From NCBI RefSeq assembly GCF_030013205.1, contig NZ_CP122648.1: a DNA stretch of 64,000 nucleotides, one strand, 5' to 3'. How positions within the stretch are numbered: position 1 is the first letter of the stretch; each line of letters begins with the position of its first letter. The position numbers and the translations under genes are program-made. Below the pieces are notes generated by a model that searched no databases, was not told where the DNA came from, and saw only the letters and a list, made by a program, of their open reading frames with translations. Below are positions 1 to 10,116 of this stretch, one piece after another. This DNA comes from Escherichia coli (GTDB taxonomy: Bacteria; Pseudomonadota; Gammaproteobacteria; Enterobacterales; Enterobacteriaceae).

Positions 1-8
1 TTGACACC

Positions 9-1001
9 ATGAAGTTTCTTGGCATACTCGCCATTTATATAGGCCATTTCTACCAAGCATCAGGAAAATTATATCCTTTTGTTTTTATGTATCACGTCCC
101 TCTATTTTTCTTCATTTCAGGTTTTTTCTCATCATTAACAGACTTTAAATTCAACCCACATTTTTTAGTTAAAAAATTCAAGCGACTAATGGTGCCTTAT
201 TTCATTTTTGCATTTATAAATCTAGCGTTGATTGCGGTAAACAAAAACTACGATACCGAATCAATCCTTAAGTCTATTTATGAAATCATCTGCGGAATAA
301 GAAACACGCCTGCAGTTGGCACCATATGGTTCATTAACTGTCTTTTCGTTATAATAGTTATTGATTACATCACTTACACATTAATTAAAAACAGAACACT
401 TGTTTTAATAATAGCATTAGCGGTACATTTCTATACACAATTGTTAATGCCTCACAATCCACTAAGTGCGCCAAAGTGGTTTATGAATATTGACTCAGCC
501 TTAGCATACTGGTGGCTACTAGCAAGCGGCAGACAATTTTTTCCAATTTTAAAAAAATCAATCAATACATATAATAAACTCCTACCAATATGCATTTTCA
601 TAGCATCAGGTGTGTTTACGGCGTATGCACTATTCAATTCTCAGTTCATAAATCAATATATCATTAATACATACATGCCAAATTTATCCAAGATTAATAT
701 AGTTAATATAATCAATAATGACATTGGCATTTTAATCATTATCCTATTTAATGCTTTTCTTGCAAAGCGGCTATCCCGGATAAATCTACTAAAAAACATG
801 GGAAAAAACACATTAAATATATGTGGCTTTGAAATGGGTACAAAACTCTTAATTTCGACTGCTATTATGATCCCTGGGTTAAGACTTCTATTACCTACAC
901 CTCTATCAGCAGTCCTATACTCCTCAATATGTGTTATCTTTGCTCATCACATTACAACTTATTTATCAGCGAAATTCCCCTCGATATTCTCAATACGTTA
1001 A
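9..1001 (+). CDS. Acyltransferase family 3-like polytopic membrane protein (possible O-antigen/glycan acetyltransferase); 5' end may extend beyond window start
   Basis: 330 aa ORF, highly hydrophobic with many predicted TM segments and an LFFFISGFF motif like the conserved motif of Oac/OafA acyltransferases; AT-rich by inspection; reading frame is open to position 1. Confidence 0.55.
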   Translation: MKFLGILAIYIGHFYQASGKLYPFVFMYHVPLFFFISGFFSSLTDFKFNPHFLVKKFKRLMVPYFIFAFINLALIAVNKNYDTESILKSIYEIICGIRNTPAVGTIWFINCLFVIIVIDYITYTLIKNRTLVLIIALAVHFYTQLLMPHNPLSAPKWFMNIDSALAYWWLLASGRQFFPILKKSINTYNKLLPICIFIASGVFTAYALFNSQFINQYIINTYMPNLSKINIVNIINNDIGILIIILFNAFLAKRLSRINLLKNMGKNTLNICGFEMGTKLLISTAIMIPGLRLLLPTPLSAVLYSSICVIFAHHITTYLSAKFPSIFSIR

Positions 1002-1003
1002 GT

Positions 1004-1031
1004 AAAAAACTACCTCCTGAGGAGGTAGTTT
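1004..1031. terminator. Bidirectional hairpin between convergent acyltransferase and tail fibre assembly genes
   Basis: Perfect inverted repeat AAACTACCTCC-TGA-GGAGGTAGTTT flanked by A/T runs. Confidence 0.6.
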
Positions 1032-1073
1032 AGAGACAATAATTATAGTAGATGTAAAACACCCACTTTCTAA

Positions 1074-1670
1074 TTATCCAATCGGTAGTTGCGGCCATTG
1101 AATATCTGGGGCTAAACCAATATCAACTTTCTCTAACATATGAATATAATTAATCCAATCTATTAGTTTTAATCGGTCCCCATCGGAGATGATTCCTAAT
1201 TGCAACTCTGTCTGCCAAAGATTAATAGCTTCATTTGCTGACACTAGGCGAGACTTTCTTTCCTGTTCCGCATTTCTTAATAAACTTTTTCTCATCATTT
1301 CATGGTTAAACCGCCATTCGATTCCATCCCATTCGTCATAAGGAGATAATGGAACTAGTGGTGTAACATTGCTCGGATAATCACCAATTACTGTAATAAT
1401 TTCTGGCTCCCCTGTTTCGATGTTATATACTGTATCACCACGATGATCTGGGATATATTCCCACGACCTCAGATCCTCTGTCCGACAAATAATATATCCC
1501 TTTCTATTTTCGCCTGGAGGATCAATACACGAGTTAGCAGGTATCCCCACACCTGCGGAAAGATATTCAGAGGAGGATGATAAATATTCTCTGGAATCAT
1601 AATCATAGTTATAAACAGTAATCATCCCTGCTGATATAGCAATTAAGTTGCTGTCTAATTCTGCTTTCAT
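1074..1670 (-). CDS. Phage tail fibre assembly protein (P2 gpG-like)
   Basis: 198 aa ORF immediately downstream of and translationally coupled to the tail fibre gene; C-terminal region resembles the tail fibre assembly chaperone family. Confidence 0.8.
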   Translation of the reverse strand: MKAELDSNLIAISAGMITVYNYDYDSREYLSSSSEYLSAGVGIPANSCIDPPGENRKGYIICRTEDLRSWEYIPDHRGDTVYNIETGEPEIITVIGDYPSNVTPLVPLSPYDEWDGIEWRFNHEMMRKSLLRNAEQERKSRLVSANEAINLWQTELQLGIISDGDRLKLIDWINYIHMLEKVDIGLAPDIQWPQLPIG

Positions 1671-7988: not shown

Positions 7989-8564
7989 GTGACCATGAAT
8001 TTGGAGAAAGGCGGACGAGGCGCTATAGAGCGCATGGTAGAAGCTTATGGATTCAAGACTCGACAGGCGTTGTGCGATCATTTAGGAATCTCTAAAAGTA
8101 CACTCGCCACACGTTACATGCGTGACTCATTCCCCGCAGAATGGGTAATCCAGTGCGCCCTTGAAACGGGCACCTCGCTTAATTGGCTCACAACCGGGCA
8201 TGGTTCAAAGCAAACTTCAGGTAATACAAATACTATGGAAGTTGCTAAATATGTATTATCTGATGGGGCCTTGTGTGAAGACGGTTTTTATATTTTCGAT
8301 AGGGAATTTCTACCGTCGGCATTCAAGAATCTTTTTGTAATCACAGATAATAATTCTGAATTTATTTGTGATAAGGAATTTGATGATATACGTGATGGTA
8401 AATGGGTAATAAGTATTGATGGCGAAATAACGATCCGTGACATTACTCGTTTACCCGGTGGAAGAATCTTCGTCGAGGGTGGAAACAGAGCCTTCGAATG
8501 CAAGATAGAAGACATTGAAATAATTGGTAAAATTATAAGTTTAACAGTCAAGTATGTTAAATAG
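7989..8564 (+). CDS. Phage repressor CI (186 CI family)
   Basis: 191 aa ORF with N-terminal HTH region (ERMVEAYGFKTRQALCDHLGISKSTLATRY) resembling 186 CI. Confidence 0.8.
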   Translation: MTMNLEKGGRGAIERMVEAYGFKTRQALCDHLGISKSTLATRYMRDSFPAEWVIQCALETGTSLNWLTTGHGSKQTSGNTNTMEVAKYVLSDGALCEDGFYIFDREFLPSAFKNLFVITDNNSEFICDKEFDDIRDGKWVISIDGEITIRDITRLPGGRIFVEGGNRAFECKIEDIEIIGKIISLTVKYVK

Positions 8565-8579
8565 TACCGGGAGGAAACT

Positions 8580-8771
8580 ATGCTTGGTAAGGTATTTTTT
8601 GTGGTTTTGTCATGTTCTTTGTTATTAAACCCACTAACTACCTATGCTAGAAATTATCCCTGTTCAGGGAAAAAGGGAGGTGTTTCTCACTGTACCTCAG
8701 ATGGCAAATTCGTTTGCAATGATGGAACTATTAGTAAATCCAAAAAAATCTGTACTAAAAACTCACGATAA
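8580..8771 (+). CDS. Small secreted Cys-rich protein (63 aa), cargo gene in the cI-int operon
   Basis: Strong GGGAGG ribosome-binding site 6 nt upstream; N-terminal signal-peptide-like hydrophobic segment followed by a Lys/Cys-rich mature region. Confidence 0.5.
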
Positions 8772-8959
8772 CTTTTGCTTTTATATCTGCGCCTAAAATA
8801 AAAATGAGCCGCAGGTTAACCGCAAAAGTTACATGCTCACATAGCAAAAAGAATAGCCAACTTAATTATGGCTTCAGTGAGATGTATGGTCGTAGGATTT
8901 CATACATTGACACTGGTTATACATACAGTGAAAATGCTCTCTACTGGAGGGCATTTTTT

Positions 8960-10012
8960 ATGGCAGTACGAAAACTCACCACAGGGAAATGGCTTTGCGA
9001 ATGTTACCCCGCCGGACGTAATGGGCGTCGTGTGCGTAAACAATTCGCCACCAAAGGCGAAGCACTGGCCTTCGAGCGATACACCATGGGGGAAATAGAA
9101 GCAAAGCCCTGGCTGGGCGAATCAGTGGATCGTCGGACACTGAAAGATATGGTTGAGCTATGGTTCAAATTACATGGCAAATCTCTTACTGCCGGACAGA
9201 ATGTCTACAACAAGCTGCTGTTGATGGTTGACGCCTTGGGAAATCCCCTTGCAACTGATCTCACCTCAAAAATGTTTGCTCACTATCGCGATAAACGCCT
9301 TACTGGTGAAATCTACTTCAGTGAAAAATGGAAGAAAGGAGCAAGCCCAGTTACTGTTAACCTGGAGCAAAGCCATCTAAGCAGCGTTTTCAGAGAACTT
9401 TCCCGCCTGGGTGAATGGACACTTCCAAACCCATTAGAGAAGATGCGCAAATTCACTATCGCAGAAAAGGAAATGGCATGGCTTACACATGAGCAGATTA
9501 TCGAATTACTGTCTGACTGCAAACGTCAGAACCCAATTCTGGCACTGGTAGTCAAGATATGCCTAAGCACAGGCGCACGCTGGCGAGAAGCAATAAATCT
9601 TACCCGCTCACAGGTGACCAAATACCGAATTACCTTTGTAAGAACGAAGGGGAAGAAAAACAGGAGCATCCCTATCAGTAAAGAGCTTTACGAAGAGATC
9701 ATGGCGCTTGATGGGTTCAATTTCTTTACAGACTGCTATTTTCAATTTTTATCCGTGATGGAAAAAACGTCTATCGTGCTCCCTCGCGGTCAACTGACAC
9801 ACGTTCTGCGCCATACGTTTGCGGCGCATTTCATGATGTCGGGTGGAAATATCCTTGCTTTGCAAAAAATCCTCGGACATCACGATATAAAAATGACTAT
9901 GCGTTACGCACATCTGGCACCGGATCATCTGGAAACGGCGCTCCGTTTCAATCCTCTGGCAACGCTGCCAAGTGGCGACAAAGTGGCGGCAGCGGTTGGC
10001 ATTACCCCGTAA
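8960..10012 (+). CDS. int: Tyrosine integrase (P2/186 family)
   Basis: ORF 8804-10012; start set at internal Met (MAVRKLTTGKWLCECYPAGRNGRRVRKQF...) typical of P2-family integrases; C-terminal HxxR...Y catalytic region (LRHTFA...MRYAHL). Confidence 0.85.
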   Translation: MAVRKLTTGKWLCECYPAGRNGRRVRKQFATKGEALAFERYTMGEIEAKPWLGESVDRRTLKDMVELWFKLHGKSLTAGQNVYNKLLLMVDALGNPLATDLTSKMFAHYRDKRLTGEIYFSEKWKKGASPVTVNLEQSHLSSVFRELSRLGEWTLPNPLEKMRKFTIAEKEMAWLTHEQIIELLSDCKRQNPILALVVKICLSTGARWREAINLTRSQVTKYRITFVRTKGKKNRSIPISKELYEEIMALDGFNFFTDCYFQFLSVMEKTSIVLPRGQLTHVLRHTFAAHFMMSGGNILALQKILGHHDIKMTMRYAHLAPDHLETALRFNPLATLPSGDKVAAAVGITP

Positions 10013-10116
10013 TAACCACCACTGACCACCACATTAAGTTATTGTTTTTCATCTAACTTATTGTTTTTATTAACCCATTTAGATAAGTGGTTTTTTTGTT
10101 GCCTGAAATTTATCTA

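What the first reader, a model, noticed from the sequence alone, without database searches (positions are those of the whole stretch)
1..10116. Degraded P2/186-type prophage retaining only lysogeny and tail/baseplate modules, inserted beside rcdA
The gene order int, cI, apl-like, cII-like, then directly R fragment, S, V, W, J, I, H, G, lacks every capsid, terminase, lysis and replication gene expected between cII and R in P2/186-type genomes. The surviving parts are the repressor/integrase module and cargo genes, which benefit the host, plus a tail/baseplate/fibre set. The intact-looking V-W-J-H-G genes could mean selection for a tail-derived function or simply a recent deletion. Sheath and tube genes would lie left of the window if present.
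Basis: partly seen in the sequence, partly recalled or inferred. Interest (0 to 1): 0.55.

Follow-up and report, generated by a model that had tools for sequence, protein, structure and literature searches.

The report
Decaying 186-type prophage remnant at rybB
This is an ordinary dead virus (a P2/186-family prophage) in a pig E. coli strain. It has lost about two thirds of its genes through repeated deletions, can no longer build particles or tails, and keeps only its repressor and integrase, a few host-useful passenger genes and some leftover tail genes.

Summary
Window 1-10116 carries, in P2/186 order, G, H, I, J, W, V, S, an R fragment, a truncated cII, an apl/cox-like gene, cI and int. 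No head, terminase, lysis or replication genes are present. The window matches pig ETEC/O139:H1 E. coli genomes.

The element sits between ybjL and rcdA, at the 3' end of the sRNA gene rybB. That is a published P2-like attachment site, occupied in 1061 of 5426 complete E. coli genomes.

Against an intact 33.5-kb relative at the same site, this lineage lacks about 15 kb (R to cII). In the best-matching genomes it also lacks 5.8 kb left of the window (D N-terminus, U, T, E, tube, sheath). Gene I carries a 38-bp frameshifting deletion.

Seventeen near-identical pig isolates show at least four different deletion states of the sheath-tube-tape-measure operon. Decay is therefore recent and ongoing. 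A tail-derived (tailocin) function is not supported.

What is probably still useful to the host:
- cI immunity; the cI protein is identical to that of an intact-looking prophage elsewhere.
- An acyltransferase-3 gene, 42% identical to SfII OacD.
- An FRG-domain candidate defence gene in the S-V slot.
- A small YdcA-like gene.

Verdict: a new member of a known kind, of low interest.

The parts
1..1001 (+). Cargo gene: acyltransferase-3 family membrane protein (351 aa; true start 55 nt left of the window). It sits in the G-FI ('Z/fun') cargo slot and is 33% G+C.
   Evidence: Pfam Acyl_transf_3, 6e-17. 42% identical over 96% of its length to the acyltransferase of Shigella phage SfII, which is OacD, an O-antigen GlcNAc 6-O-acetylase (PMC8952252). 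G+C. PGAP annotation.
1074..1670 (-). G homologue, tail fibre assembly protein; intact ORF.
   Evidence: phrog_105, 1.2e-71.
1670..3181 (-). H homologue, tail fibre; intact ORF of 503 aa.
   Evidence: phrog_327, 2e-198. 52% identity to P2 H over the N-terminal 328 aa.
3178..3745 (-). I homologue (baseplate protein), a pseudogene. A 38-bp deletion between two GTGGTGG repeats near position 3484 shifts the frame.
   Evidence: Alignment with intact I genes of L003 and L004. PGAP flags it 'frameshifted'. The same lesion is present in all sister loci examined (L002, L016, L017).
3738..4646 (-). J homologue, baseplate; intact ORF.
   Evidence: phrog_4226, 7.5e-107. 65% identity to P2 J.
4633..4992 (-). 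W homologue (gp25-like baseplate wedge); intact ORF.
   Evidence: phrog_43, 1.4e-47.
4989..5567 (-). V homologue (baseplate spike/assembly); intact ORF.
   Evidence: phrog_9992, 1.3e-28. 46% identity to 186 orf32.
5653..6588 (+). Cargo gene: FRG-domain protein (311 aa) in the S-V slot (the position of P2 orf30). A candidate single-gene anti-phage system.
   Evidence: Pfam FRG, 6e-18. PADLOC candidate PDC-S15, 8.5e-32. The same slot holds PARIS AriA/AriB, SIR2, GmrSD or DUF6216 in relatives. Frg is described as an ART-superfamily predicted NADase effector in PMC9503650.
6603..7052 (-). S homologue, tail completion protein; intact ORF.
   Evidence: phrog_26, 1.3e-46. 46% identity to the 186 S homologue.
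7045..7224 (-). R fragment (tail terminator): the C-terminal 59 codons only.
   Evidence: phrog_65, 1.8e-15, profile positions 86-144 of 159. PGAP: 'missing N-terminus'.
7221..7225 (.). Deletion junction with 5-bp microhomology (GTAAC), joining the R fragment to the truncated cII.
   Evidence: Comparison with sister genome EC556, which has 3348 bp more at this point. Relative to the intact prophage in AR_452, 14,982 bp are missing (L009 23375-38356).
7220..7615 (-). cII homologue, truncated: 132 of about 169 codons, C-terminus lost.
   Evidence: phrog_101, 1.7e-47. 72% identity to 186 CII residues 1-130. PGAP: 'missing C-terminus'.
7648..7869 (-). Apl/Cox-like excisionase and repressor (73 aa); intact.
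   Evidence: phrog_575, 6e-31. The same protein accession (WP_001247707.1) occurs in an intact-looking prophage (L015).
7995..8564 (+). 186-type CI immunity repressor (189 aa); intact, transcribed divergently from apl.
   Evidence: phrog_4, 1.6e-45. 33% identity to 186 CI. Protein WP_001047320.1 is identical to the CI of the intact-looking prophage in PSS-15.
8580..8771 (+). Small YdcA-family secreted protein (63 aa), a passenger gene in the cI-int slot.
   Evidence: NCBIfam NF007463, 5e-34, above its cutoff. phrog_6000. Other relatives carry larger genes (DUF4041/SNIPE-associated) in this slot.
8960..10012 (+). Tyrosine integrase (350 aa); intact ORF in which I read motifs resembling the usual tyrosine-recombinase catalytic residues.
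   Evidence: phrog_1, 4e-76. 54% identity to 186 Int. The motifs ARWRE, HVLRH, GHHD and RYAHL are visible in the translation, read by eye and not aligned against a reference. It is a diverged allele, 91-92% nucleotide identity to other rybB-site integrases.
10087..10113 (+). attR core, GTGGTTTTTTTGTTGCCTGAAATTTAT. It is a displaced copy of the last bases of the rybB terminator plus downstream sequence, repeated (25 of 27 bases) at attL next to the intact rybB outside the window.
   Evidence: Comparison of both junctions with the empty K-12 site. Rfam RybB, 104 bits, full length, at L001 16240-16318.

Best explanation
The region is the right-hand 10.1 kb of an approximately 11.8-kb remnant of a temperate Peduoviridae phage. 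Its late genes are P2/186-like and its lysogeny module (int, cI, apl, cII) is 186-type. It is integrated at the 3' end of the sRNA gene rybB, between ybjL and rcdA, in a porcine ETEC/O139:H1 E. coli clone.

Shown:
- The prophage has been grounded by several deletions. One is 38 bp inside baseplate gene I.
- About 15 kb has been lost between R and cII: lysis, head, terminase and replication genes, the cargo slot next to the portal gene, and the DinI-like gene at the tum position.
- In the best-matching genomes a further 5.8 kb is missing left of the window: sheath, tube, E, tape measure, U and the start of D.

Inferred consequences: it cannot replicate, be packaged, lyse the cell or assemble a tail. 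If the lost DinI-like gene is the Tum antirepressor and the cos site lay in the deleted interval, as their positions in 186 and P2 suggest, it also cannot be SOS-induced or packaged by a helper phage.

Inferred remaining activity:
1. CI keeps the early promoter shut and makes the cell immune to homoimmune 186-like phages, which are common at this site.
2. Int, Apl and the intact attL/attR may still permit excision.
3. Three AT-rich passenger genes act for the host: an acyltransferase-3 likely to O-acetylate surface polysaccharide, an FRG-domain candidate abortive-infection effector, and a YdcA-like small secreted protein.

The intact-looking V, W, J, H, G and S genes are orphans that deletion has not yet reached. 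They may be partly shielded because they lie between two of the passenger genes.
For: - Identity and context: the first 28 kb of the window is 100% identical to ETEC4067, and the remnant is bounded by ybjL-rybB and rcdA.
- Gene assignments.
- Site: empty K-12 site, an intact RybB copy at attL, and a 27-bp att repeat. The rybB site is listed for P2-like elements Rybb*W, Rybb*B and Rybb*Cr in PMC3032704.
- Deletion map against the intact 33.5-kb prophage of AR_452: L009 10792-16546 and 23375-38356 are missing.
- I gene: 38-bp deletion between GTGGTGG repeats.
- Ongoing decay: the 17 near-identical pig genomes show four left-flank states (W13-16, ETEC4068, EC556, ETEC4067) and two right-flank states. 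Flanking sequence differs by no more than 3 SNPs in 7.2 kb.
- No accumulated damage in V, W, J or the N-terminal part of H: one private amino-acid change each, the same range as in intact prophages. This fits recent inactivation.
- Immunity is plausible: the CI and Apl proteins are identical to those of an intact-looking prophage in PSS-15, and 1061 of 5426 genomes carry this integrase type next to rcdA.
- Cargo.
Against: - No expression or phenotype data exist. CI immunity, excision competence, acyltransferase substrate and FRG defence are all inferred from homology.
- The window itself stops inside the element, so its own left flank is not seen. Seven of the 17 related genomes still keep the sheath (and some the tube) to the left. 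However, every genome that matches the 10116 bases perfectly has lost them.
- The shielding idea rests on six remnants and is not statistically supported.
Confidence: 0.88

Rival explanations
1. The surviving tail, baseplate and fibre genes are maintained by selection because they make a tail-derived device, an R-type tailocin or contractile injection particle.
For: V, W, J, H, G and S are full-length ORFs with no excess of private amino-acid changes. The late activator ogr is retained. Head genes are absent, as in tailocins. One unrelated strain (52F4) keeps a complete tail module after losing its head genes.
Against: - Baseplate gene I is frameshifted and R is truncated.
- Sheath, tube, E/E', tape measure and U are absent, and D is truncated, in all perfectly matching genomes.
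- No holin or endolysin is present.
- Within the clone the FI-D operon has been hit by at least three independent deletions.
- Another remnant at this site (P276M) has lost W-J-I-H-G altogether.
- No second related P2-like element in the genome could supply the missing parts (places_in_record = 1).
Confidence: 0.02
2. The 7.5-kb block from the acyltransferase through G-H-I'-J-W-V and FRG to S persists because of selection on the remnant as a host island. The two bracketing cargo genes, together with cI, are kept by selection, and the tail genes between them hitch-hike because most deletions removing them would also remove a cargo gene.
For: - All six degraded versions examined keep the S-V slot cargo gene with its two neighbours, plus ogr and apl-cI-int, whatever else they have lost.
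- In the pig clone, at least five late deletions fell outside this block and none inside it.
- The S-V slot carries recognised defence genes in relatives: PARIS, SIR2, GmrSD.
- All 3 SNPs separating the window from EC556 in the shared 7.2 kb lie in the FRG gene.
Against: - The sample is small and partly biased, because L003 and L004 were found through their tail genes.
- Under a length-proportional model the absence of deletions in the block is only marginal: my estimate is p about 0.05-0.13.
- No functional evidence exists for either cargo gene.
- This is compatible with, and refines, the best explanation rather than replacing it.
Confidence: 0.3
3. It is an intact phage whose modules are rearranged or split, with the missing genes elsewhere in the chromosome.
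For: None beyond the fact that the window ends inside the element.
Against: The matching complete genomes show the element bounded by rybB/ybjL on the left, only 1.7 kb beyond the window. The whole-remnant query finds a single place in those genomes.
Confidence: 0.01

Closest known systems
Defective P2-like elements at the rybB site of laboratory E. coli strains (Rybb*B of E. coli B/REL606, Rybb*W, Rybb*Cr; Archer et al. 2011, PMC3032704)
   Same: Same attachment site (rybB ncRNA, between ybjL and rcdA) and same phage family. The ogr and Apl-like proteins are identical. The architecture is the same: ogr-D'...H-I-J-W-V-[cargo]-S-R...cII'-apl-cI-ydcA-int, with several internal deletions (E. coli B derivative).
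   Different: Deletion end points and cargo differ. E. coli B keeps P, Q, part of O, lysB/lysC and a retron (annotated St85 family; Ec86 according to PMC3032704), and has an intact I. The pig-clone remnant has lost all of those, has a broken I, and carries FRG and an acyltransferase instead.
Coliphage 186 (Eganvirus, NC_001317)
   Same: The lysogeny module has the same type and order: int, cI, then divergent apl and cII (fil in less-deleted sisters). CII is 72% identical, Int 54% and CI 33%. Late-gene synteny is shared.
   Different: 186 integrates into the ileY tRNA gene, this phage into rybB. The Apl-like protein is not detectably similar to 186 Apl by tblastn. The intact relatives carry a dam methylase and other early genes. 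This copy is defective.
Coliphage P2 (Peduovirus, NC_001895)
   Same: Late-gene order is R-S-[orf30 slot]-V-W-J-I-H-G-[Z/fun slot]-FI...D-ogr, at 38-65% amino-acid identity. The cargo positions correspond to P2 orf30 and Z/fun.
   Different: P2 uses the C/Cox switch and lacks cII. The integrase is only 36% identical, and P2 uses a different attachment site.
R-type tailocins (P2-tail-derived bacteriocins such as R-pyocins)
   Same: P2-like tail genes without head genes, sitting in a chromosome.
   Different: Tailocins keep a complete sheath, tube, tape measure and baseplate set plus a lysis cassette and regulators. Here sheath, tube, tape measure, U and lysis genes are absent, and I, R and D are broken.

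Membership tests
P2/186-like (Peduoviridae) prophage | Conserved late-gene synteny: R-S-V-W-J-I-H-G and then FI...D-ogr | tested here: met
   The order and orientation match P2 and 186, with 40-65% amino-acid identity. ogr and D' lie just left of the window.
P2/186-like (Peduoviridae) prophage | 186-type lysogeny switch: int-cI on one strand, apl-cII divergent | tested here: met
   cII is truncated. The apl-like gene matches the Cox/Apl PHROG but not 186 Apl itself.
P2/186-like (Peduoviridae) prophage | Site-specific insertion flanked by an att repeat, with int next to one end | tested here: met
   A 27-bp repeat (25 of 27 identical) at attL and attR. The empty site in K-12 contains rybB, and an intact rybB copy is rebuilt at attL.
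P2/186-like (Peduoviridae) prophage | Complete gene set for a viable phage (head, terminase, lysis, replication, full tail) | tested here: not met
   20.7 kb of about 33.5 kb is missing relative to AR_452, and I is frameshifted. It is therefore a defective remnant, not a functional member.
R-type tailocin | Complete contractile tail module (sheath, tube, tape measure, U, D, full baseplate) | tested here: not met
   Sheath, tube, E, T and U are absent, D is truncated and I is frameshifted in the matching genomes.
R-type tailocin | Own lysis cassette for release | tested here: not met
   No holin, endolysin or spanin genes remain.
rybB-site P2-like elements (Rybb* of Archer et al. 2011) | Integration at the rybB ncRNA locus between ybjL and rcdA (ybjK) | tested here: met
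   with the literature table. The E. coli B derivative locus has the same layout.
PADLOC candidate defence system PDC-S15 (FRG domain) | Match to the PDC-S15 profiles and the FRG domain | tested here: met
   PDLC04937, 8.5e-32, covering residues 18-289. Pfam FRG, 6e-18.
PADLOC candidate defence system PDC-S15 (FRG domain) | Demonstrated protection against phage | not testable with these tools
   Needs plaque assays. Only the context supports it: the slot holds PARIS, SIR2 or GmrSD in relatives.
Phage-borne O-antigen O-acetyltransferases (AT3 family, for example SfII OacD) | Acyl_transf_3 membrane domain, carried as a lysogenic-conversion gene on a prophage | tested here: met
   Pfam PF01757, 6e-17. 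42% identity to the SfII acyltransferase over 96% of its length. Located in the Z/fun cargo slot.
Phage-borne O-antigen O-acetyltransferases (AT3 family, for example SfII OacD) | Acetylation of a defined O-antigen sugar | not testable with these tools
   The substrate is unknown. It would need LPS chemistry on a knock-out.

The most novel reading that the evidence does not exclude
The remnant is not simply rotting. It may be turning into a small host island kept by selection for CI immunity and for the two AT-rich cargo genes (the FRG candidate NADase defence and the surface-polysaccharide acyltransferase). On this reading the S-V slot of P2/186-like phages is an additional defence hotspot, holding FRG, PARIS, SIR2 or GmrSD in different strains. 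Retention of that slot would dictate which phage genes survive, and V-W-J-H-G would persist only as hitch-hikers between selected genes.
Probability: 0.3. Interest if true: 0.35.

Novelty: new member of a known kind. Interest (0 to 1): 0.17.

Why it matters
It matters little on its own, since defective P2-like prophages at rybB have been catalogued since at least 2011. Three points give it modest value:

1. Seventeen near-identical pig isolates capture at least six separate deletion events in one prophage. This is a clean natural time series of prophage decay, with microhomology at two of the three junctions examined.
2. The S-V slot of these phages carries a changing set of known and candidate defence genes and could be mined.
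3. The acyltransferase may alter the surface antigen of an edema-disease/ETEC pig clone.

Tried and rejected
- Tailocin reading: rejected on gene content (see the rival explanations).
- Link to the classical hybrid P2 Hy dis of E. coli B: rejected. P2 Hy dis has a P2 C-type repressor and so cannot take its immunity from the rybB element, which has a 186-type CI. That it instead relates to the other E. coli B remnant, listed at cyaR, is my inference.
- Full census of intact versus degraded prophages at the site: the search tool joins pieces only up to about 13 kb apart and lists 60 rows, so an exact count was not possible. I instead inspected seven evenly spaced hits of the int-rcdA junction search. 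Five look intact and two are degraded.
- Rfam scan of the whole remnant with permissive thresholds: only RybB at attL, plus one chance snoRNA hit.
- NCBIfam: nothing for the acyltransferase, FRG, cI, apl or cII.
- PADLOC: nothing for the acyltransferase or the YdcA-like gene.
- Promoter and terminator scan: only consensus-level matches, not used as evidence.
- Test for excess private substitutions in the orphan tail genes: none found. This cannot separate recent loss from selection.

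
Full report
**What is in the sequence**

On the minus strand lie G (1074-1670), H (1670-3181), I (3178-3745, in two frames), J (3738-4646), W (4633-4992), V (4989-5567), S (6603-7052), a 59-codon C-terminal fragment of R (7045-7224), the first 132 codons of cII (7220-7615) and a Cox/Apl-like gene (7648-7869). On the plus strand lie cI (7995-8564), a 63-codon YdcA-family gene (8580-8771) and a tyrosine integrase (8960-10012).

Two further plus-strand genes interrupt the phage backbone. 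Both are AT-rich (33-40% G+C against about 56% for the backbone). One is an acyltransferase-3 gene at 1-1001, whose start lies 55 nt left of the window. The other is an FRG-domain gene at 5653-6588, between S and V.

tblastn against the reference genomes gives 40-65% amino-acid identity for the structural proteins to both P2 and 186. CII (72%), Int (54%) and CI (33%) match 186 best; CII and CI have no P2 match at all, while Int also matches P2 Int at 36%. The element is therefore a 186-type (cI/apl/cII) member of the P2-like family. No head, terminase, lysis or replication gene is present.

**Where it comes from and where it sits**

Bases 1-10116 are 100% identical to five complete genomes of porcine ETEC. 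They are 99.9-100% identical to 17 genomes in all, every one from pigs or wild boar and including O139:H1 strains. The first 28,116 bases of the window equal ETEC4067 exactly. The remaining 36.7 kb differs by two mismatches and one gap.

In ETEC4067 the element lies between ybjL and rcdA and continues only about 1.7 kb left of the window. That stretch holds a D fragment and ogr.

In K-12 the same interval contains only the sRNA gene rybB. In the lysogen a full-length RybB (Rfam, 104 bits) sits at the ybjL side. A 27-bp sequence covering the T-stretch of the rybB terminator and the bases after it is repeated at both ends of the element, with 25 of 27 bases identical. The attR copy is at window 10087-10113. 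The phage therefore integrates into the 3' end of rybB and rebuilds it.

This site is already in the literature. Archer et al. 2011 list P2-type elements Rybb*W, Rybb*B (carrying retron Ec86) and Rybb*Cr at 'rybB ncRNA' (PMC3032704). A junction query (int 3' end, attR and rcdA) is covered at 80% or more in 1061 of 5426 complete E. coli genomes. This is one of the commonest P2-like sites in the species.

**What has been lost**

AR_452 carries an apparently complete 33.5-kb prophage at the same site. Against it, the ETEC4067-type remnant lacks two intervals.
- L009 23375-38356 (14,982 bp): the start of R, lysC, lysB, endolysin, holin, X, L, M, N, O, P, Q, the cargo slot next to the portal gene, the DinI-like gene that sits at the position of the 186 antirepressor tum, A, dam, several small early genes, fil and the end of cII. 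The cos site is not annotated in these loci; from its position next to Q in P2 and 186 I infer that it also lay in this interval.
- L009 10792-16546 (5,755 bp): the first ~23 codons of D, then U, T, E/E', the tube gene FII and all but 47 nt of the sheath gene FI.

Together these make 20.7 kb.

Gene I also carries a 38-bp deletion between two GTGGTGG repeats, which shifts the frame. The R/cII junction in the window (7221-7225) has a 5-bp microhomology, GTAAC.

**Decay is recent and still going on**

The 17 pig genomes share the I lesion and differ by at most three SNPs over the shared 7.2 kb. Yet they differ in structure.

On the right side:
- EC556, EC571 and EC581 retain 3,348 bp more than the window: an A fragment fused to R', then dam, traR, DUF2732, DUF5347, fil and a full cII.

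On the left side there are four states:
- W13-16 keeps FI, FII, E, E', half of T and 1,047 bp of D.
- ETEC4068 keeps FI, FII and E but only 129 bp of D.
- EC556 keeps FI, part of FII, 54 bp of E' and 816 bp of D.
- ETEC4067 keeps 1,026 bp of D joined to the first 47 nt of FI.

No one of the last three states can be derived from another, so at least three independent deletions hit the sheath-to-D operon after the clone diverged. Only 7 of the 17 genomes have the ETEC4067 left junction. All five genomes that match the window's 10,116 bases perfectly are of that type. The most likely left flank of the window therefore has no sheath or tube, although the window itself cannot prove it.

The orphan genes V, W, J and the N-terminal part of H have one private amino-acid change each. 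That is the same range as the intact prophages compared, which fits recent inactivation.

**Other strains at the same site**

Seven hits were taken at even steps down the ranking of the junction search. Five look complete and two are degraded.
- P276M is an 8.5-kb remnant: int-ydcA-cI-apl, then a fusion of a cII fragment with the lysA-position gene (inferred from its position and size, not aligned), lysB-lysC-R-S-[GmrSD]-V-T'-ogr.
- An E. coli B derivative has three separate deletions but keeps P, Q and a retron.

Two further remnants were found through their tail genes. EC596 has an A'/lysC junction, an internal stop in int and PARIS in the S-V slot. 52F4 has a fil'/endolysin' junction and a complete tail module, with SIR2 in the S-V slot.

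The deletions in EC596 and 52F4 are mutually exclusive, so they are independent. All six degraded versions have lost an intact A gene and the holin-endolysin pair. All keep ogr, apl-cI-int and the S-V slot gene with its neighbours.

**How it most likely works now**

Shown: the element has none of the replication, head, terminase or lysis genes and lacks a complete tail gene set.

Inferred:
- It can no longer replicate, lyse the cell or assemble a tail.
- It is probably not SOS-inducible and cannot be packaged by a helper phage. Both rest on functions read from gene position: that the lost DinI-like gene is the Tum antirepressor, and that the cos site lay in the deleted interval.
- CI is probably still made. 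Its protein sequence is identical to that of the intact-looking prophage in PSS-15, so the cell should be immune to that common immunity type.
- Int is an intact ORF in which I read motifs resembling the usual catalytic residues (by eye, not aligned). With Apl and both att sites intact, excision may still be possible.
- The acyltransferase is 42% identical to the SfII acyltransferase. That enzyme is OacD, which 6-O-acetylates GlcNAc in the Shigella O-antigen (PMC8952252). A surface-polysaccharide O-acetylase is the best guess.
- The FRG protein matches PADLOC candidate PDC-S15. Frg domains are described as ART-superfamily predicted NADase effectors of antiviral systems (PMC9503650). Given what occupies the same slot in relatives, a defence role is plausible.

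**Rivals**

A tailocin or other tail-derived function is contradicted by the broken I, R and D, by the absence of sheath, tube, tape measure, U and lysis genes, by repeated independent deletions in the tail operon, and by the lack of any second related element in the genome.

A rearranged but intact phage is excluded by the complete genomes.

A milder alternative is that the middle block survives because it is bracketed by selected cargo genes. This is compatible with the data, but the sample is too small to test it.

**Comparison with the known, and verdict**

The closest known objects are the Rybb* defective P2-like elements of E. coli B, W and Crooks, and phage 186 for the lysogeny module. 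This copy differs in its deletion end points and its cargo.

It is a new member of a known kind. The interest is low. The modest points of value are the within-clone series of deletion states and the S-V cargo slot.

Noticed in passing
window 5653-6588 (positions 5843, 6030, 6444): All three SNPs separating the window from sister genome EC556 across the shared 7.2 kb fall inside the 936-bp FRG gene (R64H plus two synonymous changes). The chance under a uniform model is about 0.002. This could be a recombination patch, a higher mutation rate in AT-rich DNA, or selection.
   Followed up: partly
S-V slot: window 5568-6602; L003 15521-17621; L004 15777-17297; L013 5812-7197; L008 21100-21906; L009 21557-22762: The slot between S and V (the position of P2 orf30) holds a different gene in almost every relative: FRG (PDC-S15), PARIS AriA/AriB, a SIR2 protein, GmrSD, DUF6216, or a 401-aa unknown. 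In two intact-looking prophages it is empty. It behaves as a defence and cargo hotspot in addition to the cos-adjacent and Z/fun loci discussed by Rousset et al.
   Followed up: partly
window 8565-8960 (cI-int slot); L011 2074-3750; L012 36707-38383; L009 40043-41032: The cI-int slot is also variable. It holds a 63-aa YdcA-family gene here, a 558-aa DUF4041/SNIPE-associated protein in two intact-looking prophages, and a 329-aa unknown in AR_452.
   Followed up: no
L001 16240-16318 (outside the window, 1.7 kb to its left): The rybB copy rebuilt at attL has an A-to-G change in the 3' arm of its terminator stem (GGTTGATGGG in K-12, GGTTGGTGGG here), supplied by the phage. It turns a U-A pair into a U-G wobble. 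The effect on RybB is unknown.
   Followed up: no
window 21591-22296: A RelE/ParE-family toxin gene and an HTH antitoxin gene lie between rimO and dgcI. This pair is absent from that interval in the EC596 and 52F4 loci I fetched.
   Followed up: no
window about 36420-38855 (ybiW): In the near-identical genome ETEC4067 the glycyl-radical enzyme gene ybiW is annotated as frameshifted. I did not check this in the window itself.
   Followed up: no
window 8960-10012: The integrase allele of this clone is clearly diverged from those of the other rybB-site prophages compared: 91-92% nucleotide identity, with 65 private nucleotide and 17 private amino-acid differences. The neighbouring cI is 98.8% identical to that of PSS-15, which suggests mosaic ancestry of the lysogeny module.
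   Followed up: partly
L008 27083-29131 (E. coli B derivative Rosetta2-DE3): The rybB-site remnant of E. coli B carries its retron (reverse transcriptase plus effector, annotated as St85 family) in the cos-adjacent slot next to the portal gene. This agrees with the statement in PMC3032704 that Rybb*B carries retron Ec86.
   Followed up: no
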